A stretch of 58,122 nucleotides of DNA from Chloroflexota bacterium (GCA_012515125.1 JAAYYY010000081.1:1-58122); one strand, 5' to 3'. Counted from the stretch's first letter, positions 3,309 through 54,405 are shown. The notes: generated from the letters alone by a model not told the origin. Program-made: numbers and translations.

Positions 3309-3309
3309 G

Positions 3310-5055: not shown

Positions 5056-5085
5056 CAGCTAAGGGATAATTAAGGAGATCATAAC

Positions 5086-6078: not shown

Positions 6079-6088
6079 GGAGGCAACG

Positions 6089-6829: not shown

Positions 6830-6834
6830 AGACG

Positions 6835-13901: not shown

Positions 13902-13930
13902 TTGACAAATGTGTACAGAAAGCTTATCTT
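13902..13930 (+). promoter_or_regulatory. Sigma70-like promoter candidate for the GH94 operon
   Basis: TTGACA (13902-13907), a 17-nt spacer, then TATCTT (13925-13930), in the 426-nt divergent intergenic region. Confidence 0.4.
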
Positions 13931-14004: not shown

Positions 14005-14018
14005 GTGAAACGTTTCAC
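14005..14018. promoter_or_regulatory. LacI-family-type palindromic operator candidate
   Basis: Perfect 14-bp palindrome GTGAAACGTTTCAC. It matches the generic LacI/GalR operator pattern TGxAAxCGxTTxCA. It lies between the promoter candidate and the GH94 start (14174). A LacI-family gene sits at 31122. Confidence 0.5.
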
Positions 14019-16555: not shown

Positions 16556-16665
16556 ACGTGACAGGAGATGACTGAAGGGCCGACCGGCCGGTATAGGGGT
16601 GGCGGCAGTCCCACAAGGAGCCGCCCGAGATGGTGTATCGGCAAAAGCATAAGGAGTTTAGAAGG

Positions 16666-18132
16666 ATGAAGAGCCATTCGAGATTGTTTTACCTGTTGGT
16701 GATGGTGGCGCTTATGGCCCTGCTCGTGGCCTGCGGCGGCACCAACGAGCCACCGGCCAATGCGCCGGCCGAGGAGACGAATACGACGGACGTGGCCGAA
16801 GAGCCCGCCGAGGAGATGGCCGAAGAACCAGCCGAGGAGCCGGCTGAAGAAGAAACAGTTGGCGACCCCGGCGCGGAGGTTACCCTGCGCTACGCCAACT
16901 GGAACCTGGGCACCGAGGAGGAGAACAACCTGCAGCGGCGCATGGTCCAGGCCTACATCGACGCCAACCCGCACGTGAGCGTGGAGTTCGTGGATATGTC
17001 GGCCGAAGGCGGCTGGGAAGCGGTGCTGACCTCGTACGCGGCGAAGGGCGAGCTGCCCGACGTGTTCATGGCAAACAACGTGCCGCTCTACGTGCAGAAC
17101 GGCTGGCTCGCCGACCTGACGGAGTATGTACAGGACGACCCGGCGTGGGCTAACGTCCCCGAGGCGCTGGTGGACACCGTCACCTATGGCGGTCGCGTCC
17201 TCGGCCTGCCCGCCGCGCAGTTCGTTATGGGCTACTTCGTCAATCAGGACCTTTACGAGGAAGCGAACCTCGACGCGCCCGCCTACGGCTTTACCGTGGA
17301 GGAGTTCGAGGATGCCGTCACTTCGCTGCACAACCCGTCCCAGGGCGTGCTGGGCCTGGACGAGTACGAGTTCATGATAGGCTGGTATCCTAACACGCAG
17401 GACCCCAACCTGAAGTGGTTCAGCTACGACGGCGAAAAGATGAATTACAACTCGGCTCCCTTCAAGGAGGGCATCGCTTTCGCCGGCGAGATGAAGCAGT
17501 ACACCTGGCAGGGTCAGACCGAGGAGCAACTGGCCAACTTCCAATCCACGGGGCCCTGGGAGCTGTTCCTCAACGAGGAAGTCGGCATGCGCTGGGACGG
17601 CTCCTGGGCGGTGCCCGGCATCGTGTCGGGCGCTAACTTTAACTGGGACTTCGTGGGTATTCCCGGCGGCAACCAGGCGATGGTCGCCGACGTGATCGTC
17701 GTCTCGGCGACGGCAGCCAACCCGGAAGAGGCGTTCGCCTTCGCCAGATGGATGACCTACTCGCCAGAAGCCTATGTCACTGAGGTGGAAATTGCCCGCG
17801 AGATGGGCACGGCTCCGAAGATGCCCGTCTCGGTTGACGACGAATCTCTGACCATATACAAGGAGTTTGTCGACGTGCCGGGTATTCACGCCGCCCTGGA
17901 CAACCTCGACAACAGCCTGGTCGAATCCCTGGCCAAAGTGATCCCCGGCTACATCAACGCCCGCTGGGAGGGCAAACCGGGCATCAACATTGGCGACCAG
18001 ATGGACGTGAACATGGCCTACATGTTCGCCAACGCCAACGAGGGCATGTACAAGTTTGAGGACTACTCTGCGCAGCTAGAGACGTTTGCCAACCAGATCC
18101 TGAGCGACGCCACTACGCAGATGAACCAGTAA
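16666..18132 (+). CDS. ABC transporter solute-binding lipoprotein (family 1, carbohydrate)
   Basis: I prefer the ATG at 16666, preceded by AAGGAG, over the ORF-track start at 16630. Lipobox LLVACGG is followed by an acidic AEEPAEE linker. A family-1 SBP body follows. Confidence 0.8.
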   Translation: MKSHSRLFYLLVMVALMALLVACGGTNEPPANAPAEETNTTDVAEEPAEEMAEEPAEEPAEEETVGDPGAEVTLRYANWNLGTEEENNLQRRMVQAYIDANPHVSVEFVDMSAEGGWEAVLTSYAAKGELPDVFMANNVPLYVQNGWLADLTEYVQDDPAWANVPEALVDTVTYGGRVLGLPAAQFVMGYFVNQDLYEEANLDAPAYGFTVEEFEDAVTSLHNPSQGVLGLDEYEFMIGWYPNTQDPNLKWFSYDGEKMNYNSAPFKEGIAFAGEMKQYTWQGQTEEQLANFQSTGPWELFLNEEVGMRWDGSWAVPGIVSGANFNWDFVGIPGGNQAMVADVIVVSATAANPEEAFAFARWMTYSPEAYVTEVEIAREMGTAPKMPVSVDDESLTIYKEFVDVPGIHAALDNLDNSLVESLAKVIPGYINARWEGKPGINIGDQMDVNMAYMFANANEGMYKFEDYSAQLETFANQILSDATTQMNQ

Positions 18133-18147
18133 GCGTAATCATGACGG

Positions 18148-18181
18148 GAAGGAGGGCGCTGCCGGTGCAGCGCCCTCCTTC
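18148..18181 (+). terminator. Strong stem-loop downstream of the SBP gene (attenuator or terminator candidate, no U-tract)
   Basis: Perfect 14-bp stem GAAGGAGGGCGCTG / CAGCGCCCTCCTTC with the 6-nt loop CCGGTG. It starts 16 nt after the stop codon. Confidence 0.5.
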
Positions 18182-18202: not shown

Positions 18203-18869
18203 ATGAGCCCGGTCATTGAAGCTCAATTCTACACGCCTCGCCTGCCGGTCAACATCGTGGCGCTGCCCAACGGCTACGAGGCACAGGCAATGCGCGCCCT
18301 GATCGAAATGCTCGGCGGCGTGGTGACCATCCACTGGATTGGCACGCCGGGGGATTTCCTCAAGGTGTTGGGCCAGGGCGAGACGGCGCCCGTTACCTGT
18401 TGATCGCCGGGCACGGGGACGTAGCGGAGGGATTCTGGCTGGACCGCTACGCCGATTTCATCGACACCTTGATGCTGCGCGGCGAATACCTGCCGGCCGA
18501 GGCCATCGAGCCGGTCGTGGATCTGCCGGGCTGCACGGTCATCGCCACTTCCTGCGGAGGCGGCAGCGCGGCGATAGGCCGGGCCTTTACGCAGAATGGG
18601 CGCATCAATGCTTACATCGGATCTCGCGTCCATCCCGGCGGCGAGATCCACGTTTTATCGTGAACTTCTTCTTCAACGTGATGGTCAAGAAAATGTCGGA
18701 TAGAGACGCCTGGTACGGGGCGATGGTGGCGACCGATCATCCCAAGATCTACCAGACGAGCCTGTACCTGCCGGGCGGCATTGAAGAACGGTACGAGGGC
18801 GTTGAGGGCGGGGCGCCGGTATCTGTGCAGCCGGCCGAACCGTACCTGGTCTCTCACGCCGAGGAATAA
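18203..18869 (+). pseudogene. Hypothetical protein gene split over three frames (two apparent frameshifts)
   Basis: ORF 18203-18403 ends ...GQGETAPVTC*. The next frame continues RYLLIAGHGDVAEG... to 18663. A third frame continues ...FIVNFFFNVMVKKMSDRDAW... to 18869. Together they read as one ~220-aa protein. Confidence 0.55.
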
Positions 18870-18897: not shown

Positions 18898-21792
18898 ATG
18901 GCGCCGAAAATCACGCGACTGATTGGGCTGCTGGGGATGGTTCTCCTCGTGGGTGCCTACCGGCCGCCGACCGGGCAGGATGCGACGGCCAGTGGCCGGC
19001 CTGCGCCGCTGGCTGTGCCGGCCGGGCAGGTCGTATCCGGCTCCCCCGTGGAGATTCGCGCCGAGGCGTATGGGCTGCGGCTCAGCGACCACGAAGCGGC
19101 GGCCCTCTACGAGAAGGGCAGCGTCTATCTGCAGCCGGGCGACCGGATCGCCTTTGACGTGACTATCGAAGAGGCAGGGCTGTATACGGTTTCCTTCGAC
19201 GCCGCCGCGCCGGAGTCCTTTCTCACCCGCCCGGAGGGGCAGCTGCTCATCGACGGCGACTACCCGTCGGCTGACACGCAGCGCATTGTCTTCCCGATCT
19301 TTTACGAGAACAGCCGGGAGGATTTCCCGACCGACCGCTACGGGCACGAGGCGTTGATCCGCCAGCAGCAGCTCGTGCGCTGGAGCAACGTGCCGTTGCG
19401 CGATGCCAACCTGAGCCTGCCCTACCCGCTGCAGATCGAGCTGGAGGCCGGCGAGCACCGCTTTGAGTTTGAGCTGAACGAGCAGACGCTGTTGCTGGGC
19501 AGCATCTACGTGGAGCCGTTCGCGCCGCTGCCAGGCTACGAGGAATATCTGGCGGAACATCAGGCGGCGGACACGAGCGGCGTGCTCATCGAGATGGAAG
19601 CCGAGCGCCCGTCGTACAAGAACGACACCGCAATCCGGCCGATCAACAGCCGCAGCCTGGACGTCACCCCCTACGATACCTCCCGCCTGCTCCTGAACAC
19701 GCTCGGCGGCGAGAACTGGGACCTCACCGGCAGCACGGTCTATTACGAGTTCACCGTGCCCGAATCGGGCATGTACCTGATCACCCTGCGCGCCCTGCAG
19801 GATGTCAAGAACAACTTCACCGTTTTCCGCCGGATCACGATCAACGACGAAGTCCTCTTCTCCGAGCTGAACGAGACGCCTTTTTATTATTCGACCTCCT
19901 GGTCGAACATCACTCTCGGCGACGAAGAGGGTCCCTACAAGGTCTATCTGGAGGAAGGGGTCAACGTCCTGGGCCTGGAGGCGACGATCTCGCCCTACCG
20001 CTCGGCTATCGAGAAGGTCACAAACGTGCTGCTCGACATTAACGAGCTATCCCTGGAGATCAAGCGGCTGACCGGCAATCAGATCGATCCGTTCAAGGAG
20101 TGGGTCATCTCGGACTACATACCGGACATTGAGGAACAGCTGCTGGCGATTGCGGCCGATCTGCAGGAAGACCTGGATATTTTGCGCACCATTCAGGGCA
20201 GCGGCGGCTCGCAGGAGATCCTGACCTACCAGATGGCGATCGACAACATCACCACGCTGGCCCAGGACCCGAACGAGATTCCGGCGCGCATGAACCGCTT
20301 CTCCGAGGGCACCGGCTCGGCGGCGCAGCTTCTCGGCGACCTGCTGCCACAGCTACAGAGCCAGCCGCTGACGCTGGACAAGATTTACATTCACTCGCCC
20401 GACGTACAGCCCGAAGAGACGGGTGCGAGCGCGCTCACCTCCCTCTGGGAAGGCATCAAGCGCTTCTTCCTCTCTTTCCGGCCCGATCCCTACCAGTCGA
20501 TTGGCGCGGAGGCGGGCGAGCTGGAGGTGTGGGTCAATCGCCCGCGCCAGTACGTGGATCTGCTGCAGCTACTGGCGGACGAAACTTTTACCGGCGAGAC
20601 GGGCATCAGCGTGAAGTTCTCGATTATGCCGGACGAGAACAAGCTGGTGCTGGCGAACGCTGCCGGCATCCAGCCCGACGTGGCCCTGGGCGTGAGCACG
20701 AACGTGCCTTACGAGCTGGCGATCCGCAACGCGCTCAAAGACCTGCGGCAGTTCGACGACTTCGACTCCTTCATCACCATCTACGAGCCGGGCAGCCTGC
20801 TGAGCTACGTCATCAACGAGTCAGTCTATGCGATCCCCGAGACGCAGGATTTCTGGGTGACGTTCTACCGGCGTGACATTCTGAACTCGCTGGGCATCCC
20901 GGTGCCGGATACGTGGGACGAGGTGATCGAGATTTTGCCGGAGCTGCAGCGCTTCGGCATGAACTTCAATACGGCCCTGTCCAGCGGCAGCGGCACGAAG
21001 GGCTACCTGCTCACGGCGCCGTATCTCTTCAATCATGGGGCCGATCTGTATGCCGAAAACGGCTTTGCTACGGGCATGGGCAGCGACGAGGCCATCGAGG
21101 CGATCCAGTTTATGGCCGAGAGCTTCACGATCTATGGCATGCCGCTGCAGACAGCCAACTTCTACGATAGCTTCCGCTACGGCAGCCTGCCGATCGGCAT
21201 TTCTAACTTCACGACCTATCTGCAGCTGTTGACGGCGGCGCCGGAGCTGAACGGCCTGTGGGAGCTGGCCCTCTACCCGGCGACCGTGCTGGACGATGGG
21301 CGCGAGCTGCGCTATGCGACTGGCTCGGCACAGGCCAGCATCATGTTCGAGAAGACGGACCAGCCGGAAGAGGCATGGGAGTTTATGAAGTGGTGGATGT
21401 CTACCGATACGCAGGTCGATTTCCAGCAACAGCTCATCCTCAATTACGGGATGGAGTATTTGTGGAACTCGGCTAACGTGGAAGCGTTCGCCTTTTCGCC
21501 GATTCCTGACAACCATAAGGAAGTGATCCTGGAACAATGGGAGTGGCTGCAGGAGCCGCTGAAGCTGCCGGGCAGCTATATGCAGGAGCGGGAGCTGAGT
21601 AACGCCTGGAACCGGATTGTCTTCGACGGGGTGAACCCGCGCGTCGCCATTGACGCAAGTGTCGTCACCGTCAACCGGGAGATCGCCCGCAAGATGGAAG
21701 AGTTTGGCTATATGCAGGACGGCCGGATCGTCAAAGAGTTTTCGATTCCGACGATAGAGACGATTGAGGGCTGGATGGAGAAAGGGAGTTGA
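18898..21792 (+). CDS. Giant extracellular solute-binding protein (964 aa): signal anchor, two CBM-like beta-sandwich modules, linker, family-1 SBP domain
   Basis: N-terminal hydrophobic anchor. Two segments follow the pattern of CBM6/35-like modules: IRAEAYG...[20 protein letters not shown] and EMEAERPSY...[16 protein letters not shown]. The C-terminal ~450 aa have SBP family-1 features ([17 protein letters not shown]). Confidence 0.7.
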
Positions 21793-21796
21793 GCCG

Positions 21797-22807
21797 ATGG
21801 TAGAACAGGAATCGCCACAGATATTCCCGGCGGCGACCGGCGCTCAGGCCCAGGCCGAGCTGCGCCGGGTCAGGCCGGTGGAGCGAGACGAGGTCGGCGA
21901 GCCGCGCCCCTTCCCCCGCCTCAGGCAATGGCTGAACCGCGAAGGCAGCGCCTACGCCTTTCTCTCGATGTACGCCGTGTTGTTTATCGTCTTTATCGTC
22001 GTGCCCGTCGTGGTCGCCATCGGCCTCTCGTTCACCTTCTTCGACACGATCCAGCCGCCGACATTTAACGGGCTGCGTAACTACATCGTCCTGCTCACCC
22101 AGGACGACATCTTCATGCGCTACGTGCTGCCCAACACGATCAAGTTTGCCGTGCTGGTCGGGCCGGGCGGTTACGTTCTGGCTTTTATGCTGGCGTGGAT
22201 TCTGGCCCAGCTGCCCAAGAAGCCGCGCACGGTGCTCGCGCTGATCCTCTACTCGCCGTCGATGACCACTGGCGTGGCGATGGCTGTGGTCTGGAAGACG
22301 CTGTTCAGCGGCGACCAGAATGGCTACCTGAACAGCTTCCTGATGGGGTTGAACATCATCCAGGAGCCTATTCAATGGCTGCAATCGCCTGACTACCTGA
22401 TGACGATCATGATCGTCGTCACCCTGTGGAGCAGCATGGGGATCGGCTTCCTGGCGATGCTCGCGGGGATTCTGGAGATTAACCCGGAGCTGTACGAAGT
22501 GGGTGCGCTGGACGGCATCAGCAACCGCTTCCAGGAGATCGTCCACATCACTATTCCGTCGATGAAGCCGCAGATGTTGTTTGGCGCCGTGATGGCGATC
22601 GTGGGCACGTTCCAGGCCGGGGCGATTGGCGTTACCCTTTCCGGCGGCAACCCGACGCCGCAATACGCGGGCCAGCTCATCGTCAATCACATCGAGGACT
22701 TTGGCTTTCTGCGCTACGAGATGGGCTACGCTGCCGCCGTATCCGTCGTGTTGTTGTTGATGGTGCTCTTTTTCGCCAGAGTCGCCAATAGATTGTTCGG
22801 GAGTTAA
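21797..22807 (+). CDS. Carbohydrate ABC transporter permease (pair A, first)
   Basis: ATG at 21797, after GGGAG. Six predicted TM segments. EAA-loop [28 protein letters not shown]. Confidence 0.85.
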
Positions 22808-22810
22808 GCC

Positions 22811-23734
22811 GTGGCTACGATAACGCGCAGACGCAGGCGCTCGCACAGCCGGTTCGCCAATATCCGCAACGCCGGGATCAATCCCAAGGGCTTCCACACG
22901 AGCCAGATCAAGTTCTACATCATCCTGCTGCCGCTGATCGTGCTCATGCTCCTGCCGATCATCTTCGTCTTCTCGCACGCCTTCAAGCCGCCGGACGAGC
23001 TGTTTGCCTATCCGCCCCGCTTCTTCGTCACCAGTCCGACGTTCAAGAACTTCACCGACCTTTTTTCGCGGATGTCCAACTCCGGCGTGCCGGTCAGCCG
23101 CTATCTGTTTAACAGCATCGTCATCACGGCGGTGACCATCGTCGCTTCGACCATCGTCTCGACGACGGCGGCCTACGCCCTCTCCAAGAAGCGCTTCAAG
23201 CTGAAGACGACGCTCTTTGCCATCAACACCGTGGCGCTGATGTTTGTGCCCATCGCCGTGATGATCCCGCGCTTCCTGATTATCGAGCGGCTGAACCTGA
23301 TCGACACCTTCCTGGTGCACATTCTGCCCGGCCTCGCCCTACCGGTGGGCCTCTTTCTGATCAAGCAGTTTATCGACGGCATTCCCGACGAGGTGGTGGA
23401 AGCGGCGCGCATCGACGGCGCTAACGACGTCTGGATCTACTGGTTCATCATCCTGCCAATGATCCGGCCGGCCATCGCCACCATCGCGATCCTGACGTTC
23501 CAGGCGACCTGGAACAACGCGGAGATTTCCACACTGTACATCAACAGCGAAAGCCTGAAGACCTTTGCCTTTTATCTCTCGACGCTGACGACGACGACGG
23601 CGGGCGCGAACGCCGTCGCCGGACAGGGCATGGCTGCGGCGGCGACGCTGATCATGTTCCTGCCCAACCTGCTCATCTTCATTCTGCTGCAAAGCCAGGT
23701 GATGAGCACCATGTCGCACTCTGGCCTCAAATAA
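22811..23734 (+). CDS. Carbohydrate ABC transporter permease (pair A, second)
   Basis: 307 aa. EAA-loop [26 protein letters not shown]. Confidence 0.85.
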
Positions 23735-23748
23735 GGAGGTCGCGAACG

Positions 23749-25755
23749 ATGAAACGGCTAATCTGGACCGGTTTATTGCTGGCGCTCCTGGCCCTGACGG
23801 CGGTCCCGGCGCGGGCCGACACGCCCTATACGACGTGGGCGCTCGGCCCCAAGGGATTGCTCGTCATGACCCAGGACGCCTACACGCCGCTGAACGAGGT
23901 AGACCTGCCGGTGTCCGGGCCCGAGGATATGTTCGTCACCAAAGAGGGCGTGATCTACGTGGCCGACGCGGGCAACGAGCGCATTGTCCGGCTGGACAAC
24001 AACTATGAAGTGGTCCAGTCGTATGGCGAGGAGGTGCTGGACAACCCGACGGGCATCTTCGTGGACGACGAGGGCGTGATCTACGTGGCCGACGCGGGGC
24101 TGGCGCAGATCGTCATCATCGGCGCAGACGGCGAGATCATCAACCAGTTTGGCCGGCCGACGGAGCCGCTGTTTGGCCGCAACCGGGAGTTTCTGCCGCG
24201 CAAGATTGCGGTCGATGCGCGCGAGAATCTGTACATCATCAGCGAAGGGTCGGTCAACGGCATCGTGCAGATGAACACGATGGGTAACTTCATCGGCTAC
24301 TTTGGGGCGAACTCGGCCTCGATGTCGCTGAAGATGATCCTGCAGCGCCTGTTCCTGACCGACGAGCAGCTGGCGCAGTTCATCCGCAACGAGGCGGCGA
24401 GTCCCTCTAACCTGACCATCGATCACCAGTCGCTCGTCTTTACGATTACCGCCGGCACTTCGCCCGAGAAGGCCATCCGGCGCTTCACTATTTCGGGCAA
24501 GAATATTTACCCGGACACGTGGGGCTCGACGGCCTTCCGGGACATCGACGTGAGCGAGACTGGCGTCGTTCTGGCGGTCGCTCCTGATGGGATCTTCGAA
24601 TATGACCTGAACGGCACGCTGCTTTTTGTCTTTGGCGCGCAGGACACGGGGAACCAGCGGCTGGGCACGCTGCGCAACCCCACAGCCATCGCCCGGCGCG
24701 GCGAGCAGATCATCGTCCTGGACAAGGACAAGAACGGCCTGGTCCTTTACGAGACGACGGCGTTCGCCCGCCAGGTGCATGAGGGCGTGCGCCTCTATAT
24801 GGGCGGCTATTATCAGGAAGCGAAGCCCTATTTTGAGGACGTCCTCGACTTCAACGGCTCCTTCATCATGGCCTACCAGGCGATTGCCGACGCTTACTTT
24901 AAGGAGTTCGACTACGAGAAGGCGCTGGAGAACTATCGCTATGCCGAAGACCGTGAAGGCTATTCGCAGGCGTTCTGGGAGCTGCGCAACCAGGTCTTGC
25001 AGCGCCGGCTGAGCCAGGCGCTGATGGCAATGGTCGGCCTCGCGCTCGTCTCGCAGGTAGCCACACGCGTCGACCGTCGCTACCACTGGAGCGATCCGCT
25101 CCGCACCCGGCTGGAGAGGCTGAAGGAGATCAAGCTGGTTGACGATCTCCGCTTCATGTTCCGCTTTATCAAGAAGCCGGCGGACAGCTTCTATTACATC
25201 AAGAAGAACAAGAGGGGCAGCCTGCTCTTTGCCTTTCTGATTTACCTTGCCGTCGTCGTCATTCGCGTGCTGTCGCTCTACGTGACCGGCTTCATCTTCA
25301 GCCCGTATGCCTCGCCCGCCGACATTAACGTGGAGAACGCCATCGTCACCACGGTTGGGCTGCTGTTCCTGTGGAACGCCGCCAACTATCTCGTCTCGAC
25401 CATCAGCGACGGCGAGGGGCGCGTGCGGCACGTGGTCATCGGCACGGCCTACAGCCTCTTTCCCTACATTCTGATTGCCCTGCCGGTCGCCCTGCTCTCC
25501 AACGTGCTGACCGAGAACGAGGTCTTCATCTACTCCTTCACCCTGAACCTGATGTGGGTGTGGATCGCCATCATGCTCTTCATCATGATCAAGGAGATCC
25601 ACAACTACTCCTTTTCGGAGACAGTCAAAAACGTGCTGGTGACGCTGTTCACGATGGCCCTCTTCCTGCTGACGGGCTACATCCTGTACGTACTCTTTAC
25701 CCAGCTATTTGACTTTATCACGGCGATTGCCCAGGAGCTGAGGTTACGTGCTTAA
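23749..25755 (+). CDS. Signal peptide + NHL-repeat beta-propeller + TPR-like segment + Yip1-type multi-pass membrane domain
   Basis: 668 aa. Repeated [14 protein letters not shown] / [17 protein letters not shown]-type blades. The segment [13 protein letters not shown]...[11 protein letters not shown] is TPR-like. The C-terminal ~200 aa have five hydrophobic helices, as in Yip1-domain proteins. Confidence 0.65.
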
Positions 25756-27925
25756 GATACCGCGGCTGATCGTTGCCCTGATCCTCGTCGTCCTCCTGCT
25801 CGGCGTGGGCGCTCTCCACGCGGCGCAGGATGGACCGTCGCTGGCCCCTATCGCGCAGGAGATCCCGGCCGAGAGCTATGAACTGGTGGGTGAAAACGAG
25901 AAGTTTCAACTCTATGCGAGCCAAGAGACGCTGGCCTTTAAGGTCGTGGACAAGCGCAACGGCTACATCTGGCACTCCAACCTGGACGAGGTAACGGAAG
26001 AAGACAACCTTAACCGGACCTGGACCGCCTTTGCCCAAAGCGGGATCAGCATCAACTACCTCGACCAGAGCGCGGACAACGAGCGAAATTCCATTACGGC
26101 TGCTGAACATACCCTCGAGTTTGAGCCGATCGAACAGGGCTTCCAGGCGTCAGTCACCTTTACGGACCCGTCTATCACCGTGGGCGTCGTCGTCCAGCTT
26201 GAGGCGGACGGCGTCCGTGTAGAGGTGCCGTTTGATCGCCTGCGGGAGGCTGACCCAGAGTACAAGCTGGGCATGCTCCACCTCTACCCGTTCTTTGGGG
26301 CGACCCGGGCGGACACAGTGCGGGGCTATATGTTCATCCCCGACGGCTCGGGAACGCTGATTAACCTGGCGGCCACGACCAAGGCGCGGAACATGTTCTA
26401 CGGGCGCTACTATGGGGCCGACCTGGGCATGATCGGCACGCTGCCCTACGACCCGCTCCTGAAGCGACCCTACCAGCTCTCTATCCCGGTCACGGGTATG
26501 GTCCACGGCGAAAAGGAACACGCCTTCATCGCCGTGGTCGAGAAAGGGGCCTCGTACGCCGAAGTGCAGGGCCACCCGGCGGGGGTCACGACGCAGTTCA
26601 ACTTCATCTACAACGCCTTCATCTACAACCAGAGCTACTTCCAGGCGACGAACCGAGCCGGGGCGGGCGTGACGGTGCTGCAGCCGACGACAAACGCCTT
26701 CGACGTGGTCGTCCATTACCGCCTGCTGACCGGCGACGAGAGCGACTACGTGGGCATGGCCCGCAGCTACCAGGCCTATCTGCTGGACAAGGGGATGCTC
26801 GACCGGAGAGTGGACGAGAGCGACGACATTGGCATCAGGCTGGAGTTCCTGGGAGCGGAGAAGGAGCGTATCCTCTTCTGGTATCGCTCGATTCCCATGA
26901 CGACGCTCGAGCAGATGGGGGCAATTCTGCGGGACCTGGAGATTGCTAATCCCGACGTCGTCTACTATGGCTGGCAGCCTCGCGGCGCCTCGACGAGCTT
27001 TCCGCGCACACTGAAGCTGGACCGCTCGCTGGGCAACACGGCCGGATTGCGGTCGCTGATCGAGGAGATCGAGGCGGCGGGGGGGCGCTTCCATCTCTAT
27101 CTCGATCCGCAGGCGGCGCTGTTGGACGAAGGCGGTTATTCGGCGCGCCGCGATCTGGCGATGGCGATCACCAACGTCAACCTGATGGGCTACAACCGCG
27201 ACAAGGTAAACTACTACCTGAATATGGAGGCCCTGAGCGACTATTACAGCGGGCTGAGCGAGGACATTTTCGCCGAGACGGAGGCAGGGCTGGCGCTCGA
27301 CGGCATCGGCTCCACGCTGTATAGCGACTTCAGGAGCGGCAGACGGTTGAACCGTGAGGGCGCGATAGCGGGCTACCAATCGCTGATGGAGGACGCCGGG
27401 GGCCACCTCGCCTTCTACCAGCCCAACGACTACATGTACGGCTACATGGACGCCTACTACGACATTCCTGTGAGCAACAGCGGCTACATCTATACGACGG
27501 AGGTCGTGCCGTTCCTGCAGATCGTGCTGGCGGGCTACGTTCCCTACTACGGCCCGGCGATGAACTTCTCCTCTAGCCTGCGGGCCGACCTGCTGCGCCA
27601 CGCCGACTTTGGCGTCTACCTCTCCTACTTCCTGACCCAGGAGCCGACGGCGAATATCCTGGGTACCCGCTCGGAGTGGATTTACACTTCCTCTTACGCA
27701 CAGTGGGGAGATGAAATCGAACAGACCTATGAATGGCTGAACAACCTGCTGGCGCCGGTCAAAGGGGAGCCCATCGTCGCCCGCGAGCGCGTCGCGCGGG
27801 GCGTCTTTGCCACCACCTACGCCAACGGCCGGCAGATTGTCGTCAACTACAACAGCAGTCCGTATTACAGCGGCGACCTGGCAGTGGAAGCGCAGGACGC
27901 GATTATCAGGGAGGTTGTGCCATGA
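25748..27925 (+). CDS. Membrane-anchored or secreted uncharacterised protein, DUF5696-like (assignment from memory)
   Basis: 725 aa. N-terminal hydrophobic anchor. The GTG start overlaps the preceding stop. No recognised catalytic motif. The central region (YGWQPRG...[11 protein letters not shown]...[14 protein letters not shown]) is compatible with a TIM-barrel carbohydrate-active fold. Confidence 0.5.
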
Positions 27926-28812
27926 CCCAACGTGTGAGCCGGCGCCGGTTGGGCCTGACGTACCGGGCCAGAGAGGCGCTGGGCGGCTATTCCTTTGTGC
28001 TCATCTGGATCGCCGGCTTTCTCATCTTTACGCTCGTGCCACTGGGGCAGACGCTTTATTACAGTCTGAACCAGGTGACGGTATCGGCGACCGGCATCAA
28101 CCTGCGCTTCGTGGAGTGGAACAACTACACGCGCGCCCTGTTCACCGATCCCACTTTCACCAGCCTGCTCATCGAATACGCCATCGAAACACTCGTCTCC
28201 GTGCCGATCATCGTCATTTTTTCGCTGATCATCGCCCTGTTTCTGAATCTCAAGCTGAAGTTCAAGGGGATCTTCCGCACGATCTTCTTCCTGCCGGTGG
28301 TGATCACCAGCGGGCCGGTCATCCAGGAGCTGGTGGCGCAGGGGGCTACGTCGGTGCCGGGACTGACGCTGCCGGAGAGCGTGACTTCTTTCATCGCCGA
28401 CCTGCCCGTCTATCTGCGCAATCCCATCGACTACCTGCTGACTTCGTTCATCCTGATCCTCTGGTTCTCCGGCGTGCAGATCCTCATCTTCCTCTCCGGG
28501 CTGCAGAAGATCGACAGCAGCACCTACGAAGCGGCGTCCATTGACGGCGCCTCGGCCTGGGAAGCGTTCTGGAAGATCACCCTGCCCTCGCTGTCGGGGA
28601 CGACCATTCTCGTGGCTGTTTACACGATCATCACGCTCTCGCACTTCTCGGAGAACAAGGTGATCAAGTATATCTACGGGCAGACCTACGCCGTCGGCGG
28701 CGGCATTGGCTACGCCAGCGCGATGTCTTTCCTCTACTTCTTTGTCCTGATCCTGCTGCTGGGGATCGTCTATTTCCTGTTGACGTATCGTGCGAAGGGG
28801 CAGTACGGATGA
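27922..28812 (+). CDS. Carbohydrate ABC transporter permease (pair B, first)
   Basis: The ATG at 27922 forms an ATGA overlap with the preceding stop. The ORF-track start at 27733 lies inside the upstream gene. EAA-loop TYEAASIDGASAWEAFWKITLPSL. Confidence 0.85.
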   Translation: MTQRVSRRRLGLTYRAREALGGYSFVLIWIAGFLIFTLVPLGQTLYYSLNQVTVSATGINLRFVEWNNYTRALFTDPTFTSLLIEYAIETLVSVPIIVIFSLIIALFLNLKLKFKGIFRTIFFLPVVITSGPVIQELVAQGATSVPGLTLPESVTSFIADLPVYLRNPIDYLLTSFILILWFSGVQILIFLSGLQKIDSSTYEAASIDGASAWEAFWKITLPSLSGTTILVAVYTIITLSHFSENKVIKYIYGQTYAVGGGIGYASAMSFLYFFVLILLLGIVYFLLTYRAKGQYG

Positions 28813-29789
28813 GAATCTCAATACCGCTGAACCGCATCAGGCCCGAGCTGACCAGCAGCCAAAACCGGGTGCGCTGGGAAAAGCTACGCAGTTTCCTCTT
28901 TGGCAGCCGCACCAGCTACGGCCTCGTGACCAACGTGCTGCTCTACATGGTGCTCATCGCCATCGGCTTCGTCTATCTCTACCCGCTGCTCTTCATGTTC
29001 GTCACCAGCCTGAAGAGCCCTACCGACCTGCTCAACCCGATGGTGCAGTGGATCCCGTCGGAAGTGTACGCGGGCAACTACGAAAAAGCGTTCCGGGTGC
29101 TCAATTATCCGCAAACGCTGGCGTCGTCGCTGCTGATCAGCGTCGTCCCGTCGCTCATCCAGGCGGTCGTCGCCTCCGTCGTCGGCTACGGGTTGGCCCG
29201 CTATCGCTTCCCGGGCAAGAACCTGATCCTGATCCTGCTGCTGGCGACGTTCATCATCCCGGCGCAGAACACGGTCATCCCGCAGATGCTGACCTACCGG
29301 CGCTATGGGCTGCTGGGCAGCATCTACTCGCTGATCCTGCCTGCGGTGGGTGGGCAGGGGTTCCGGAGCGCCATCTTTATTCTGATCTTCTACCAGACCT
29401 TCCAGTCGCTGCCCAAGGTGCTGGAAGAAGCGGCGCGGCTCGACGGCGCGTCGGACCTGACTATTTTTCTACGGATCGCCGTGCCGGCCGCCGTGCCGGC
29501 CTATATCATTTCCATCATCTTCTCCACCGTCTGGTACTGGAACGAGACCTACCTGACAGTGATCTTTCTCGAAGGCGGGATTCAATCCCTCCCGATGCAG
29601 TTGTCCAAGTTCGTGCAGGCCTATGAAAACCTGTACCCGCCGGGCACTGTCAATATCTTTGATCGTTTGAATGAGGCAGTTAAATTGAGCGGTACTTTTC
29701 TGAACATCCTCCCTCTGTTGATCATCTATTTTGTGCTGCAAAAGTGGTTCGTGGAATCTGTAGAAAGGTCAGGTGTTACTGGTCAATAA
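28809..29789 (+). CDS. Carbohydrate ABC transporter permease (pair B, second)
   Basis: ATGA start/stop overlap. EAA-loop LEEAARLDGASDLTIFLRIAVPAAVP. Confidence 0.85.
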   Translation: MRISIPLNRIRPELTSSQNRVRWEKLRSFLFGSRTSYGLVTNVLLYMVLIAIGFVYLYPLLFMFVTSLKSPTDLLNPMVQWIPSEVYAGNYEKAFRVLNYPQTLASSLLISVVPSLIQAVVASVVGYGLARYRFPGKNLILILLLATFIIPAQNTVIPQMLTYRRYGLLGSIYSLILPAVGGQGFRSAIFILIFYQTFQSLPKVLEEAARLDGASDLTIFLRIAVPAAVPAYIISIIFSTVWYWNETYLTVIFLEGGIQSLPMQLSKFVQAYENLYPPGTVNIFDRLNEAVKLSGTFLNILPLLIIYFVLQKWFVESVERSGVTGQ

Positions 29790-31125
29790 ACTCACAGCCT
29801 TCCTCCTGATAGCGTTGCTCCACCTGACCGGTTGCTCGGCGCCAGAGGACCACGCCACGGCGGGGACGATTCCGGCATCTCCGCCGGCCGTTGCCGCCGC
29901 CCCAGAACAGGCCGCCAATGAGGAGGTCATCGACTACGAGACAGCCGGCTCGTTCGCCTTCTTCTGGGAGCAGGCCAACACCGACGCGAGCAGCCCCGGC
30001 TATGGGCTGATCCGCGACCGCTACCCGGGCGCGCCCGGCGTCGCCAGTATCGCCGCCGTCGGCTTTGGCCTGACAGCCTACGCGGTCGGCGTGGACAAAG
30101 GTTACATCACGCTTGAAGAAGGGTACGAGCGCGCCAACGGCACGCTGGACACACTGCTGGGGATGGAGCGCGTCGAGGGCTTCTACTACCATTTTGTAGA
30201 CATGAACACGACCGAGCGCGTCTGGCAGAGCGAGGTATCGTCCATCGACACCGCGATTCTGGTCATCGGCGCGCTCGCCGCCGGAGAGTATTTCGGAGGC
30301 GACGTACAGCGCAAGGCCGCCGAGCTATATAGGGGCGTCAACTGGCCGTGGTTTGTGGACGCGTCGCGCCAGATGTTCTACATGGCCTACCGACCGGAAG
30401 AGGGTTTCTCCGGTCATTGGGACTACTACGCCGAACAGCTCATGCTCTACGTCCTCGCCGCCGGCTCGGAAAGCTACCCGGTAAACGACACGACCTACTA
30501 CCGCTTCACCCGCCACTACGCCCGCTACGGCGACGGCGAGGCGTTCATGCACTCCTGGTTCGGCTCGATTTTCACCTACCAGTACAGCCACGCCTGGATC
30601 GACTTCCGTGGCTACACCGACGCCGAAGGTGCGGACTGGTTCCAGAACTCGGTTGATGCCTCTCTGGCGCACGTCCAGTTCGCCACGGACGTGGACGAGC
30701 AGTACGAGACGCTGGGCCCCGACGCCTGGGGGCTGACCGCCTGCGACGGTCCCGACGGATACAACGGGCTCTATGGCGCGCCGCCGTCCGGGGCAGACAA
30801 TACGGCGCACCTGGTTGACGACACGGTGGCTCCGGCCGGCGCCATCGGCTCGATCATCTTTGTGCCCGAACATGCGCAGCGGGCGATGCGCAACTACTAC
30901 ACCATCGAGCCGCTGAAGGGGGAGTATGGCTTCCGCGACGCATACAACCTGACCGAGGCGTGGTACGCGCCCGACGTGATCGGCATCGACAAGGGCATCA
31001 GCCTGCTCATGCTCGCCAATCATGAGAATGGTTTTGTTCACCGCATCACGATGCAGAACGCGCAGATCCTGGACGGCCTGGCGCGTCTGGGAATTGAGAA
31101 GAACGGAATGGGTACCGGCTCATGA
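29773..31125 (+). CDS. GH144-like (glucoamylase-family, PF10091-type) lipoprotein; candidate endo-beta-1,2-glucanase
   Basis: 450 aa. Lipobox LHLTGCS. FFWEQAN...GYGLIRDRYPG...ASIAAVGFGLTAY...GFYYHFVDM...SSIDTAIL matches my recollection of the GH144 / putative-glucoamylase family. Confidence 0.65.
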   Translation: MLLVNKLTAFLLIALLHLTGCSAPEDHATAGTIPASPPAVAAAPEQAANEEVIDYETAGSFAFFWEQANTDASSPGYGLIRDRYPGAPGVASIAAVGFGLTAYAVGVDKGYITLEEGYERANGTLDTLLGMERVEGFYYHFVDMNTTERVWQSEVSSIDTAILVIGALAAGEYFGGDVQRKAAELYRGVNWPWFVDASRQMFYMAYRPEEGFSGHWDYYAEQLMLYVLAAGSESYPVNDTTYYRFTRHYARYGDGEAFMHSWFGSIFTYQYSHAWIDFRGYTDAEGADWFQNSVDASLAHVQFATDVDEQYETLGPDAWGLTACDGPDGYNGLYGAPPSGADNTAHLVDDTVAPAGAIGSIIFVPEHAQRAMRNYYTIEPLKGEYGFRDAYNLTEAWYAPDVIGIDKGISLLMLANHENGFVHRITMQNAQILDGLARLGIEKNGMGTGS

Positions 31126-32102
31126 CGACCATCGCAGACGTAGCCCGGCGCGCCGGGGTCAGTATCGCCGCCGCTTCCTATGCGCTCAACGGCACAGGGA
31201 CGATCAGCGACGACACGCGGAAACGGGTCCTGGCGGCAGCCGAGGAGCTGAACTATTACCCCAATGCGTCGGCCAGGAATCTCAAGCGCGGCCATACGAT
31301 GACGATCGGCGTCTTCATCACGCGCTTCGGCGGCAATTTCTACGAAGAGATTCTGGAAGGCATTCACGACGCCGTGCTGAAGACGGAGTACGAGCTGATG
31401 GTCTGCCCGGAGAGCCACTCTCCCCCCGCGCTGCTCACCCAGCGGCAGGTAGACGGGGCCATCGTCTTTGACTCGAAGACAAAGAGCGAGACGTTGCTCA
31501 AGCTTGCCTCCAAGCGTTTTCCGATCGTCACCCTGGACCGCTCCCTGGACTCCGAAAACATCTTCCCCCTGCTGCTGGACAATGAAAAGGGAGCGACCGA
31601 GGCTTTCTACCATCTCTACGAGCAGGGGGCGCGGCGCATCAGCTTCGTCTCCGGGGCGCCGGACTCGCTCGACAACTGGGAGCGGATGCGCGCCTTCAGG
31701 CGCGAGGCCGCCCGGCACGACGTTGACGTTCGCCTGCATTACGGCGACTTCACCGAGAAGTCTGGCTACCGGGTCGCGCAGTCGATCGTCGAAAGCGGCG
31801 TCCTGCCGGAGGCCGTTTTCTGCGCCAATGACCAGATGGCGATTGGTTTCATCAAGGCAATGAGGGAAGCCCACCTGCGCGTGCCGGAGGATATCGCGGT
31901 AGTCGGCTTCGACGACATTCTCATCGCCGCCTACATGCAGCCTTCGCTCTCCACGATTGGCGCCTCGCGCACGGAATGGGGCGCTACTGCGGCGCAGGTG
32001 CTGATCCGATTCCTTGAAAACGACCGTTCATTCCCCAAGCCCTTCCGGATCAGCACCCGGCTAATCGAGAGGGAATCGTCAAAGGTGAGACATCTTGAAT
32101 AG
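31122..32102 (+). CDS. LacI-family transcriptional regulator
   Basis: N-terminal HTH TIADVARRAGVSIAAASYALNG...RKRVLAAAEELNYYPNASARNLKRG, followed by a periplasmic-binding-protein-like sugar-binding core. Confidence 0.9.
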   Translation: MTTIADVARRAGVSIAAASYALNGTGTISDDTRKRVLAAAEELNYYPNASARNLKRGHTMTIGVFITRFGGNFYEEILEGIHDAVLKTEYELMVCPESHSPPALLTQRQVDGAIVFDSKTKSETLLKLASKRFPIVTLDRSLDSENIFPLLLDNEKGATEAFYHLYEQGARRISFVSGAPDSLDNWERMRAFRREAARHDVDVRLHYGDFTEKSGYRVAQSIVESGVLPEAVFCANDQMAIGFIKAMREAHLRVPEDIAVVGFDDILIAAYMQPSLSTIGASRTEWGATAAQVLIRFLENDRSFPKPFRISTRLIERESSKVRHLE

Positions 32103-39553: not shown

Positions 39554-39757
39554 GCCAGAAGGCGGGAGAAGGCTGGTCAGATGGCGGGGCGGGGACTCAC
39601 CAGGTGGAGGAGGATGATCCCCAGGCGCCGAACTATGATACACTTGGAACGCTGGCTCTGTGCCTACGTATAGAATGATGAGAGAGCCGTGTTACGTGGC
39701 CTGGCCTGCGGCAACGTCAAGGTGGGCCGGGCAGGTTGCCTTACCTCGGAGGTCTGT

Positions 39758-43147: not shown

Positions 43148-43174
43148 GAGGGGGCCTGCAAACAAGTTATCACA

Positions 43175-43208
43175 GGAGCGTGGCCAGGGATGGCCGCGCT
43201 CCTTTTTT
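43175..43208 (+). terminator. Rho-independent terminator
   Basis: Stem GGAGCGTGGCCA / TGGCCGCGCTCC (one G-U pair), loop GGGA, followed by TTTTTT. It starts 28 nt after the permease stop. Confidence 0.8.
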
Positions 43209-43225
43209 GAAGGGGATTCCTGCAA

Positions 43226-49985: not shown

Positions 49986-50013
49986 GGTTTCCTCTTGATT
50001 ACGTACAGGCGGC

Positions 50014-54246: not shown

Positions 54247-54286
54247 AGGTCTTCGTCCATAAAACGCAGAAATGGCTCTCGCTTTA

Positions 54287-54320
54287 TGAACAGGTTGTCG
54301 TAAAATAAACAGACTGTTCA
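54287..54320. promoter_or_regulatory. Inverted repeat in the exporter/tetR divergent region (TetR operator candidate)
   Basis: TGAACAG (54287-54293) and CTGTTCA (54314-54320). The extended imperfect arms are AACAGGTTGT ... ACAGACTGTT. Confidence 0.4.
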
Positions 54321-54405
54321 ATCGGAACCGCCTGATTATAGAGTTGCGCGCGCTTCTGTCAATAGTTCGGTATGATCGGGAGGCGACCTTATTCAGGAGA
54401 TTATC

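What the first reader, a model, noticed from the sequence alone, without database searches (positions are those of the whole stretch)
18898..27925. Uncharacterised five-gene cassette: 964-aa SBP with two CBM-like modules, permease pair, NHL-TPR-Yip1 membrane protein and a 725-aa DUF5696-like protein
Seen: the genes are tightly linked, with gaps of 4-14 nt or overlaps. The SBP is about twice the normal size. Its extra N-terminal ~450 aa contain two segments that look like CBM6/35-type beta-sandwiches. The next-but-two gene joins a secreted NHL beta-propeller and a TPR-like stretch to a five-helix Yip1-type membrane domain. That architecture has no assigned function in bacteria that I know of. 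The last gene encodes a membrane-anchored 725-aa protein with no recognisable catalytic motif and a central region compatible with a glycosidase-like barrel.

Inference: this may be a surface glycan capture, processing and import machine. The CBM-SBP would tether a polymer, the DUF5696-like protein would be an undescribed glycoside hydrolase or lyase, and the NHL-Yip1 protein would organise or sense. I recall seeing similar gene sets (large SBP, Yip1-family, DUF5696) in Firmicutes genomes annotated only as hypothetical, but I cannot verify that here.
Basis: partly seen in the sequence, partly recalled or inferred. Interest (0 to 1): 0.7.

Follow-up and report, generated by a model that had tools for sequence, protein, structure and literature searches.

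The report
Conserved eight-gene sugar-uptake operon with unknown accessories
The five genes are real, but they are the middle of a strictly conserved eight-gene sugar-import operon of single-membrane bacteria, here sitting among beta-1,2-glucan enzymes, and three of its proteins (a giant binding protein, a propeller-Yip1 membrane protein and a GH129-like surface protein) have never been studied.

Summary
In detail: five tightly linked + strand genes with the stated domains. The unit is drawn too small. In 80 genomes from Chloroflexota, Bacillota and one Mycoplasmatota MAG, plus more distant metagenome contigs, the order is always SBP(500 aa)–SBP(964)–permease pair–NHL/TPR/Yip1–DUF5696–second permease pair. 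Start/stop overlaps are conserved and a LacI operator (TGAAACGTTTCA) is shared.

An AlphaFold model of DUF5696 (pLDDT 93.7) is a three-domain (β/α)8 glycosidase fold closest to GH129 and GH101. A family profile also reaches GH129 by sequence (E 4e-7). It is not a GH129 member, and the candidate catalytic aspartates (D518, D572) are common but not invariant.

The extra half of the big SBP models as two CBM6/35-like β-sandwiches plus a helical bundle.

In this window the flanking enzymes are the known β-1,2-glucan set: a GH144 lipoprotein, a Cgs-type GH94, a GH35 β-1,2-glucosyltransferase-like protein and GH3. The big SBP's binding domain is closest to Lin1841. Some Paenibacillus loci pair the same core with other hydrolases.

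Best reading: a surface capture, processing and dual-import machine, here for β-1,2-glucan. The roles of DUF5696 and the Yip1 protein are inferred. I found no paper that mentions DUF5696.

The parts
13902..13930 (+). Promoter-like site (TTGACA-17-TATCTT) in the divergent region between GH13 (- strand) and GH94
   Evidence: It is a consensus match only; the region is not enriched in such sites over shuffles.
14005..14018 (.). Perfect 14-bp palindrome GTGAAACGTTTCAC, a putative LacI-family operator about 155 nt upstream of GH94
   Evidence: The core TGAAACGTTTCA (up to 1 mismatch) recurs directly upstream of SBP500, LacI, GH3 and GH94 genes in about 20 Bacillota loci and in L041.
14174..16555 (+). 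[quoted passage not shown]
   Evidence: Pfam GH94. PDB 8rf9 E 6e-161. No signal peptide.
16630..18132 (+). SBP500: lipoprotein solute-binding protein and first gene of the conserved eight-gene core
   Evidence: Pfam SBP_bac_1/8. Lipobox LLVAC. About 75% identical to PDB 22hh-22hl. Conserved position in loci.
18148..18181 (+). 15-bp perfect stem with a 4-nt loop, directly after the SBP500 stop codon
   Evidence: Read from the sequence. A role as attenuator or mRNA stabiliser is inferred.
18203..18869 (+). Doubly frameshifted ORF of about 220 aa inserted between the two SBP genes; not part of the conserved core
   Evidence: Three-frame translation and tblastn. A homologue sits at the same place in L002 and elsewhere in L027. 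No Pfam hit.
18898..21792 (+). SBP964: signal/anchor, two CBM6/35-like beta-sandwiches (about aa 51-207 and 230-363), a helical bundle (about 368-487), and a CUT1 solute-binding domain (about 540-964)
   Evidence: (best PDB hit Lin1841, E 2e-13).
21797..22807 (+). Permease 1 (MalF-like, BPD_transp_1)
   Evidence: 69% median identity between Chloroflexota and Bacillota orthologues.
22811..23734 (+). Permease 2 (MalG-like, BPD_transp_1)
   Evidence: 63% median cross-phylum identity.
23749..25755 (+). NHL-TPR-Yip1 protein: cleavable signal peptide, extracellular NHL beta-propeller (about 30-340), TPR (about 345-415), a probable extra TM helix (about 425-445), a basic loop, and a five-helix Yip1 domain (473-657)
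   Evidence: The extra TM helix is my own hydropathy estimate from the sequence.
25748..27925 (+). DUF5696 protein: N-terminal membrane anchor, beta-sandwich, (beta/alpha)8 barrel and C-terminal beta-sandwich; a GH129/GH101-like fold
27922..28812 (+). Permease 3 (BPD_transp_1); its start overlaps the DUF5696 stop (ATGA)
28809..29789 (+). Permease 4 (BPD_transp_1) and last gene of the eight-gene core
29773..31125 (+). GH144-type endo-beta-1,2-glucanase homologue; a lipoprotein, so extracellular
   Evidence: Pfam PF10091. PDB XcSGL 8xul E 5.5e-57 and CpSGL 5gzh E 3e-34. Lipobox LTGC.
31122..32102 (+). LacI-family regulator
32095..34401 (+). GH35 protein closest to the beta-1,2-glucosyltransferase IaSGT; cytoplasmic
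   Evidence: 7vkw, E 6e-66.
34407..35882 (+). Sulfatase/alkaline-phosphatase-superfamily protein; cytoplasmic
   Evidence: Present in several related loci.
35907..38189 (+). GH3 beta-glucosidase; cytoplasmic

Best explanation
The five genes are the centre of one LacI-controlled operon. Its invariant core is eight genes: a lipoprotein SBP, a giant CBM-bearing SBP, permease pair 1, an NHL-TPR-Yip1 membrane protein, a membrane-anchored GH129-like DUF5696 ectoprotein, and permease pair 2.

In this organism the operon serves uptake of beta-1,2-glucan and sophoro-oligosaccharides. The proposed sequence of events is as follows.
1. The polymer is held at the cell surface by the two CBM6/35-like modules of SBP964.
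2. It is cut by the GH144 lipoprotein. DUF5696 either processes it further (a non-beta-1,2 feature, presumably alpha-linked, or ring opening) or holds it.
3. The oligosaccharides are captured by the Lin1841-like binding domain of SBP964 and by SBP500.
4. They are imported through two CUT1 permease pairs powered by an ATPase encoded elsewhere.
5. In the cytoplasm they are degraded by GH94, GH3, the GH35 SGT-like enzyme and a sulfatase-family enzyme.
6. The Yip1 protein is proposed to be a membrane scaffold that holds the ectoproteins on the most conserved permease pair. YknW, a Yip1 family protein, does this for the YknXYZ transporter.

Shown: gene content, folds, predicted localisation, synteny, translational coupling and the operator.
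Inferred: the substrate, any catalysis by DUF5696, physical complex formation, and which SBP serves which permease pair.
For: Synteny and coupling:
- The eight-gene order is the same in every locus with enough flank, among 80 genomes of Chloroflexota, Bacillota and one Mycoplasmatota MAG.
- The same order appears on contigs that carry DUF5696 relatives at 28-30% identity.
- The median Yip1-to-DUF5696 overlap is 8 nt and the median DUF5696-to-permease 3 overlap is 4 nt, over 78-79 loci.
- The shared operator sits upstream of SBP500, LacI, GH3 and GH94.

DUF5696:
- The model has pLDDT 93.7.
- Foldseek gives GH129 at E 1e-31 (TM 0.66/0.71) and GH101 at E 1e-19.
- The family profile against PDB sequences gives ZgGH129 at E 3.8e-7 and NagBb at E 4.9e-5.
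- Conserved polar residues sit just after the predicted barrel strands: D453, D518, N560/Y562, D572 and N606.

SBP964:
- The N-terminal half models as two beta-sandwiches that hit CBM35 and CBM6 structures.
- The binding domain is closest to Lin1841, the sophoro-oligosaccharide binding protein.

Flanking enzymes:
- GH144 homologue, Cgs-type GH94, IaSGT-like GH35 and GH3.
- This is the same set as the Ignavibacterium album SGL gene cluster (PMC8861115).

Localisation.
Precedent: YknW, a Yip1 family protein, modulates assembly of an ABC transporter complex (PMC4887032).
Against: - There is no biochemical evidence for any component.
- D518 is D in 68, E in 7, N in 2 and G in 2 of 79 operon orthologues. 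D572 is D in 73, E in 4, N in 1 and M in 1. The L080 protein lacks both.
- In the wider 68-sequence family alignment D518 is D in only 49% of sequences. A strictly catalytic role at these positions is therefore doubtful.
- The GH129/GH101/GH31/GH36 fold class acts on alpha-linkages, which a plain beta-1,2-glucan lacks.
- An extracellular GH144 enzyme already explains depolymerisation.
- Two Paenibacillus loci and one metagenome locus combine the same core with GH16/GH2, GH2/GH123 or DUF4434 instead of beta-1,2-glucan enzymes. The core is therefore not tied to that substrate.
- The similarity of SBP964 to Lin1841 is modest (52 bits).
- No ATPase gene for the system lies in the window.
Confidence: 0.55

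Rival explanations
1. The eight-gene core is a substrate-agnostic glycan-import platform of single-membrane bacteria. The beta-1,2-glucan enzymes beside it in this window are only one of several interchangeable enzyme sets, so the core proteins recognise a more general feature or a different glycan.
For: - L063 carries GH16 and GH2 after the core.
- L079 carries GH2 and two GH123 genes.
- L084 carries DUF4434 and an FAD enzyme.
- None of these three has GH144 or SOGP genes.
Against: - The great majority of the 80 loci, in both phyla, carry GH144, GH35-SGT-like, GH3 and GH94 genes next to the core, and so does L086.
- The SBP964 binding domain is 56% identical across phyla, which suggests one conserved ligand class.
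- The same LacI operator is shared.
Confidence: 0.2
2. DUF5696 is a non-catalytic pseudo-glycosidase. Its barrel pocket binds or threads the glycan, or its most conserved N-domain motif ([10 protein letters not shown]) docks it to the Yip1 protein or the permeases. All hydrolysis outside the cell is done by GH144.
For: - The canonical beta4 and beta6 acidic positions are not invariant, and both are lost in L080 although the operon there is intact.
- The only invariant acidic residue (D199) lies in the N-terminal beta-sandwich.
- A GH144 lipoprotein is present.
Against: - Acidic residues are kept at position 518 in 75 of 79 orthologues and at position 572 in 77 of 79.
- Conserved polar residues line the C-terminal face of the predicted barrel, as in active glycosidases.
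- N-domain loops contribute to active sites in related families. This is my own recollection of GH31/GH36 structures and was not tested here.
Confidence: 0.3
3. The NHL-TPR-Yip1 protein is a sensor or regulator rather than a structural subunit. It would gate transporter activity in response to an extracellular ligand bound by the propeller, as in the PknD sensor domain.
For: - The NHL propeller is most similar to the PknD sensor domain and the designed proteins derived from it.
- It is extracellular and joined to a polytopic membrane domain.
Against: - It has no kinase, HAMP, GGDEF or other output domain.
- Transcription control is already provided by LacI with a conserved operator.
- Its gene overlaps the DUF5696 gene in most loci, which fits stoichiometric co-assembly.
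Confidence: 0.15
4. The cluster exports or builds a glycan, for example a cyclic glucan, rather than importing one.
For: [quoted passage not shown]
- The SBP964 N-terminal half has weak Foldseek similarity to BcsB.
Against: - SBP-dependent BPD_transp_1 systems are importers (established knowledge of type I ABC importers).
- There is no glycosyltransferase domain in the cluster.
- The regulation is catabolic (LacI) and the partner enzymes are degradative.
Confidence: 0.03

Closest known systems
Beta-1,2-glucan utilisation clusters (Listeria innocua lin1838-1843; the Ignavibacterium album SGL cluster with IaSGT)
   Same: - GH144 endo-glucanase homologue, Cgs-type GH94, GH3, GH35 SGT-like enzyme and a LacI regulator.
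- A CUT1 transporter whose SBP is related to Lin1841.
   Different: - The papers read here on those clusters mention no DUF5696 or Yip1-type protein.
- They describe an ordinary-size SBP (Lin1841 is 397 aa in the PDB chain), not a 964-aa CBM-bearing one, and they mention no second SBP or second permease pair.
GH129 (NagBb alpha-N-acetylgalactosaminidase; ZgGH129 3,6-anhydro-D-galactosidase) and GH101 endo-alpha-GalNAc-ases
   Same: - Predicted three-domain architecture: beta-sandwich, (beta/alpha)8 barrel, beta-sandwich.
- Foldseek E 1e-31 to GH129 and 1e-19 to GH101.
- Profile-level sequence homology to GH129.
- GH101 enzymes are also surface enzymes that feed an ABC importer in bifidobacteria (my own knowledge, not tested here).
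   Different: - Only 13-15% identity.
- A separate Pfam family, with no GH129 model hit.
- The catalytic positions are not strictly conserved.
- The genomic context points to glucans, not GalNAc or carrageenan.
- No activity is known.
YknWXYZ of Bacillus (the Yip1-family protein YknW as an accessory of an ABC transporter)
   Same: A bacterial Yip1-domain membrane protein is encoded with an ABC transporter, and YknW is reported to modulate assembly of that transporter (PMC4887032).
   Different: - YknXYZ is a MacB-type exporter with a membrane fusion protein.
- Here the partners are SBP-dependent importers.
- The Yip1 domain here carries a large extracellular NHL propeller and a TPR region.
Sus-like polysaccharide utilisation loci of Bacteroidota and Gram-positive PULs
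   Same: The logic of surface binding, surface cleavage, import and regulator encoded together.
   Different: - No SusC/SusD.
- The binding modules are fused to the SBP itself.
- There are two ABC importers and a Yip1 membrane protein.
- The hosts are single-membrane bacteria.

Membership tests
Pfam DUF5696 (PF18952) | Full-length match to the family HMM above the gathering score | tested here: met
   570.5 bits against a cut-off of 25.6, covering profile positions 3-611 of 612.
CAZy GH129 | Significant sequence similarity to characterised GH129 members | tested here: inconclusive
   The single sequence finds nothing in the PDB. The 68-sequence profile reaches ZgGH129 at E 3.8e-7 and NagBb at E 4.9e-5, but only over part of the length. 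Pfam returned only DUF5696 at E<=0.01.
CAZy GH129 | Three-domain fold with a central (beta/alpha)8 barrel | tested here: met
   AlphaFold model with pLDDT 93.7. Foldseek TM 0.66/0.71 to 5opq and 0.63/0.72 to 5wzr. The structure is predicted, not solved.
CAZy GH129 | Invariant catalytic nucleophile Asp and acid/base residue in the barrel | tested here: inconclusive
   ZgGH129 D486 aligns within a few residues of D518. D518 is D in 68 of 79 orthologues and D572 in 73 of 79, and the wider family is more variable. No superposition was available.
CAZy GH129 | Alpha-GalNAc-ase or 3,6-anhydro-D-galactosidase activity | not testable with these tools
   Needs an enzyme assay.
CUT1-type ABC sugar importer | Cluster B solute-binding protein plus two BPD_transp_1 permeases | tested here: met
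   Two SBPs and two permease pairs.
CUT1-type ABC sugar importer | MalK/MsiK-type ATPase encoded with the transporter | tested here: not met
   The only ABC ATPases in the window belong to ABC-2 and MacB-type systems. A shared orphan ATPase is usual in such bacteria (established knowledge).
CBM6/CBM35 | Match to the family HMM | tested here: not met
   CBM_35 E 0.24 for module 1 and nothing for module 2. BLASTP finds no similarity between the two modules.
CBM6/CBM35 | Beta-sandwich jelly-roll fold superposable on CBM6/35 modules | tested here: met
   Foldseek gives 3wnp at 3e-6, 4qaw at 8e-6 and 2y8k at 3e-5, and the isolated CBM6 modules 2cdp and 1uxz at TMt 0.53-0.57. The model has pLDDT 82.
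CBM6/CBM35 | Carbohydrate binding | not testable with these tools
   Needs binding assays.
Yip1 domain (PF04893) | HMM match above the gathering score and five transmembrane helices | tested here: met
   49.7 bits against 28.6, at aa 473-642. Hydrophobic segments at 487-657.
NHL-repeat beta-propeller | NHL repeats detectable by profile and similarity to solved NHL propellers | tested here: met
   Pfam NHL 32.3 bits against 20. PDB hits PknD 1rwi at E 4e-13 and Pizza designs at E 3e-24.
Beta-1,2-glucan (SGL/SOGP) gene cluster | Co-located homologues of GH144 SGL, GH94, GH3 BGL, GH35 SGT and a Sopn-binding SBP | tested here: met
   compared with PMC8861115.
Beta-1,2-glucan (SGL/SOGP) gene cluster | Demonstrated activity or binding on beta-1,2-glucan | not testable with these tools
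   Needs biochemistry. The ligands of PDB 22hh-22hl (an SBP500 orthologue) could not be looked up.
YknWXYZ-type four-component transporter | MacB-type permease/ATPase plus a membrane fusion protein partnered with the Yip1 protein | tested here: not met
   The operon has only type I importer permeases and SBPs. The resemblance is functional analogy only.

The most novel reading that the evidence does not exclude
The eight-gene core encodes a previously undescribed multi-subunit surface machine of single-membrane bacteria. In it, a Yip1-type membrane scaffold with an NHL propeller physically couples a CBM-bearing SBP and a GH129-like ectoenzyme to two ABC importers. DUF5696 would found a new glycoside hydrolase or transglycosylase family acting on a beta-1,2-glucan-associated linkage, for example opening or trimming cyclic or alpha-1,6-closed glucans. 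This would also give the first function for a bacterial NHL-Yip1 protein.
Probability: 0.3. Interest if true: 0.8.

Novelty: new variant of a known kind. Interest (0 to 1): 0.62.

Why it matters
- DUF5696 is a large family: 4,220 clusters at 50% identity have E<=0.001, and at least 584 matches were confirmed in a species-level genome set. It has no known function.
- In every case examined it sits in the same eight-gene operon with an equally uncharacterised NHL-Yip1 membrane protein and a double-size SBP.
- Working out this unit would assign function to three orphan protein types at once.
- It may add a glycoside hydrolase family in the GH101/GH129 fold class.
- It would show how bacteria without an outer membrane, such as the Chloroflexota abundant in activated sludge and soil and many Bacillota, capture and import soluble bacterial glucans such as cyclic beta-1,2-glucans.
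- It would test whether Yip1 proteins are general assembly factors for bacterial ABC transporters.

Tried and rejected
- Literature searches for 'DUF5696', 'PF18952' and the PDB code '22HH' found nothing. A search combining beta-1,2-glucan with Chloroflexota names gave only general papers. The LpSOGP paper does not describe its gene neighbourhood.
- The single DUF5696 sequence against the PDB gave only noise.
- A barrel-only profile (A5) against PDB sequences, meant to map the catalytic residues, found nothing relevant. The catalytic mapping therefore rests on the low-confidence end of the HMMER alignment and on the positions of predicted secondary-structure elements.
- The 68-sequence alignment was too diverse for the search for related loci, so a 13-sequence alignment was used.
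The SBP964 N-terminal model therefore rests on a shallow alignment, mostly of Chloroflexota sequences.
- BLASTP between the two beta-sandwich modules shows no detectable duplication.
- NCBIfam gave no informative names.
- Promoter and terminator scans were not enriched over shuffles.
- No CRISPR array lies between cas6 and the transposase gene.
- The export/biosynthesis reading and chance juxtaposition were both considered and rejected, on importer architecture and on synteny.

Full report
**1. Observation**

The window holds five co-directional ORFs at 18898-27925. Pfam assigns them as follows.
- The 964-aa protein has SBP_bac_1/8 only at aa 556-843.
- Both 300-aa proteins have BPD_transp_1.
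- The 668-aa protein has Yip1 (E 5e-13), NHL and TPR.
- The 725-aa protein has DUF5696 (E 6e-171).

The junctions are a 4-nt gap (using the ATG at 21797), a 3-nt gap, a 14-nt gap and an 8-nt overlap. Independent gene calls on other metagenome contigs that carry the identical protein give the same lengths: 668, 725, 296 and 326 aa.

**2. Localisation**

- SBP964 has an N-terminal signal or anchor sequence.
- The Yip1 protein has a cleavable signal peptide, so its NHL propeller and TPR region are outside the cell. A probable extra TM helix (about 425-445; my hydropathy estimate) and a basic loop precede the five Yip1 helices.
- DUF5696 has one N-terminal anchor helix, which the model shows as helix 4-25.

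**3. The real unit is larger**

I scanned species-representative genomes with a DUF5696 alignment. This gave at least 584 confirmed matches, and the best 80 loci were kept: 49 from Chloroflexota, 30 from Bacillota (Bacillaceae, Paenibacillaceae, Lachnospiraceae) and one Mycoplasmatota MAG.

BLASTP of the window's proteins against all ORFs of these loci shows the same order wherever the contig is long enough: SBP500, SBP964, permease 1, permease 2, Yip1, DUF5696, permease 3, permease 4. Contigs that carry DUF5696 relatives at only 28-30% identity show the same arrangement.

The median intergenic distances are:
- minus 8 nt for Yip1 to DUF5696;
- minus 4 nt for DUF5696 to permease 3;
- small values for the other junctions.

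The window's DUF5696 stop overlaps the permease 3 start (ATGA at 27922-27925). So the 'five-gene cassette' is the middle of an eight-gene, two-transporter operon. The recollection of similar sets in Firmicutes is verified.

**4. Regulation**

- A perfect palindrome, GTGAAACGTTTCAC, lies at 14005-14018. It is downstream of a promoter-like site and about 155 nt upstream of GH94.
- Its core, TGAAACGTTTCA with up to one mismatch, occurs 51 times in 1.6 Mb of loci.
- Most of these copies are intergenic and lie directly upstream of SBP500, LacI, GH3 or GH94 genes in Bacillota and in L041.
- A LacI-family gene sits in the cluster.

The regulator-operator pair is therefore conserved across phyla, and in Bacillota the transcription unit starts at SBP500.

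**5. DUF5696**

- The family is large: 4,220 clusters at 50% identity with E<=0.001.
- AlphaFold with a 68-sequence alignment gives pLDDT 93.7 and pTM 0.91. The model has an anchor helix, an N-terminal beta-sandwich (45-330), a (beta/alpha)8 barrel (about 360-670) and a C-terminal beta-sandwich.
- Foldseek against the PDB puts GH129 first: ZgGH129 at E 1e-31 with TM 0.66/0.71, and NagBb at E 8e-27. GH101 follows at E 1e-19, then GH36 and GH31.
- A profile of the family also reaches ZgGH129 (E 3.8e-7) and NagBb (E 4.9e-5) by sequence. This is true remote homology.
- Identity is only 13-15%, and Pfam keeps the families apart.
- The ZgGH129 residue mutated in the Michaelis-complex entry (D486) aligns within a few residues of D518, which directly follows predicted strand beta4. 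D572 follows beta6.
- Among 79 operon orthologues D518 is D in 68, E in 7, N in 2 and G in 2. D572 is D in 73, E in 4, N in 1 and M in 1. L080 lacks both.
- In the wider family alignment D518 is D in 49% of sequences.
- The only invariant acidic residue is D199, in the motif [10 protein letters not shown] of the N-domain. R536, N606 and N700 are invariant or nearly so.

My conclusion is that DUF5696 has a glycosidase fold with a conserved pocket face, but its catalytic competence is open.

**6. SBP964**

The model of aa 25-545 has pLDDT 82.4. It shows two beta-sandwiches (protein residues about 51-207 and 230-363) and a helical bundle (about 368-487).

Foldseek hits are CBM35- and CBM6-containing enzymes, isolated CBM6 modules (TMt 0.53-0.57) and BcsB. 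Pfam does not detect the modules. The 'CBM6/35-like' claim is therefore supported at fold level only. The C-terminal binding domain is closest to Lin1841, the sophoro-oligosaccharide binding protein (E 2e-13).

**7. Context**

| Gene | Closest match | Predicted location |
|---|---|---|
| PF10091 protein | GH144 homologue (XcSGL, E 5.5e-57); has a lipobox | Cell surface |
| GH35 protein | Beta-1,2-glucosyltransferase IaSGT (E 6e-66) | Cytoplasm |
| GH3 | Beta-glucosidase family | Cytoplasm |
| Sulfatase-family protein | Pfam Sulfatase | Cytoplasm |

This is the enzyme set of the published I. album SGL cluster (PMC8861115). SBP500 is about 75% identical to an SBP in PDB 22hh-22hl, whose ligand I could not retrieve.

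Two Paenibacillus loci and one metagenome locus carry the same core with GH16/GH2, GH2/GH123 or DUF4434 instead. The core can therefore be combined with other enzyme sets.

**8. Constraint pattern**

Median identity between the window's proteins and their Bacillota orthologues:

| Protein or region | Median identity |
|---|---|
| Permease 1 | 69% |
| Permease 2 | 63% |
| SBP964 binding domain | 56% |
| Permease 4 | 50% |
| Permease 3 | 47% |
| Yip1 membrane domain | 43% |
| NHL region | 39% |
| SBP964 N-terminal half | 36% |
| DUF5696 | 34% |
| SBP500 | 34% |

The SBP964/permease 1-2 importer is the most constrained part. This fits a role as the hub that several partners contact, although that reading is an inference.

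**9. Mechanism**

The best-supported model has these steps.
1. The CBM-like modules capture the polymer at the surface.
2. The GH144 lipoprotein cleaves it.
3. DUF5696 processes or holds it.
4. Two SBP domains capture the oligosaccharides.
5. Two CUT1 permease pairs import them, using an ATPase encoded elsewhere. No MsiK-type gene is in the window.
6. Cytoplasmic enzymes complete the breakdown.

The Yip1 protein is proposed as an assembly scaffold. [quoted passage not shown]

Gene content, folds, localisation, synteny and the operator are shown. The substrate, catalysis and complex formation are inferred.

**10. Novelty**

No paper in the searchable library mentions DUF5696 or PF18952. The system is an ABC-importer glycan utilisation locus, which is a known kind. 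It carries three uncharacterised and invariably linked components, so I rate it a new variant of a known kind, with interest 0.62. Existing PDB entries for the SBP500 orthologue suggest that someone is already working on part of this locus.

Noticed in passing
window 18203-18869: An ORF of about 220 aa, broken by two frameshifts, is inserted between the two SBP genes. Its translation has 'LLIAGHGD' and 'ATSCGGG' motifs that resemble a His/Cys hydrolase. A homologue lies at the same position in L002 and elsewhere in L027. Most loci have only 30-100 nt here. No Pfam hit.
   Followed up: partly
window 18148-18181: A perfect 15-bp GC-rich hairpin without a T-tract lies immediately after the SBP500 stop codon. 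It may set the ratio of SBP to downstream gene expression.
   Followed up: no
window 14005-14018; loci L041, L050-L077: The LacI-type operator palindrome TGAAACGTTTCA is conserved between Chloroflexota and Bacillota upstream of the operon's genes. Sharing a regulator-operator pair across phyla suggests the whole regulon moved by horizontal transfer.
   Followed up: partly
window 16630-18132: The 500-aa SBP is about 75% identical to the chain of PDB entries 22hh-22hl ('Extracellular solute-binding protein family 1', five entries). I could not find the ligand, the organism or a publication.
   Followed up: partly
window 21797-23734 vs loci L049-L080: Permeases 1 and 2 are 69% and 63% identical between Chloroflexota and Bacillota. 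This is far more than the second permease pair (47-50%) or any other protein of the operon.
   Followed up: partly
window 31122-32102 / 32095; loci L001-L048: Most Chloroflexota loci carry a second, divergent GH144-like gene (about 410 aa, 33-37% identity) between LacI and the GH35 gene. The window lacks it.
   Followed up: no
window 807-7836: A type I CRISPR-Cas gene set is present: Cas3 helicase/HD, an unassigned 581-aa protein, Cas7/DevR, an unassigned 246-aa protein and Cas6. No repeat array lies in the 1 kb downstream.
   Followed up: partly
window 8821-9939 (-): An IS-type transposase (rve integrase core with an HTH) lies between the cas genes and the sugar locus.
   Followed up: no
window 34407-35882: A cytoplasmic sulfatase/alkaline-phosphatase-superfamily enzyme is conserved in several of these loci in both phyla. 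It could remove phosphoglycerol or similar substituents from imported glucan fragments; this is speculation.
   Followed up: no
window 48804-54825 (-): A MacB-type ABC exporter set is present: a HlyD-like membrane fusion protein, an FtsX/MacB permease and two ABC ATPases. A DrrA/ABC-2 pair lies at 39689-41906. Both are unrelated to the sugar operon.
   Followed up: no
window 42053-44080 (-): A 675-aa ORF with no Pfam match.
   Followed up: no
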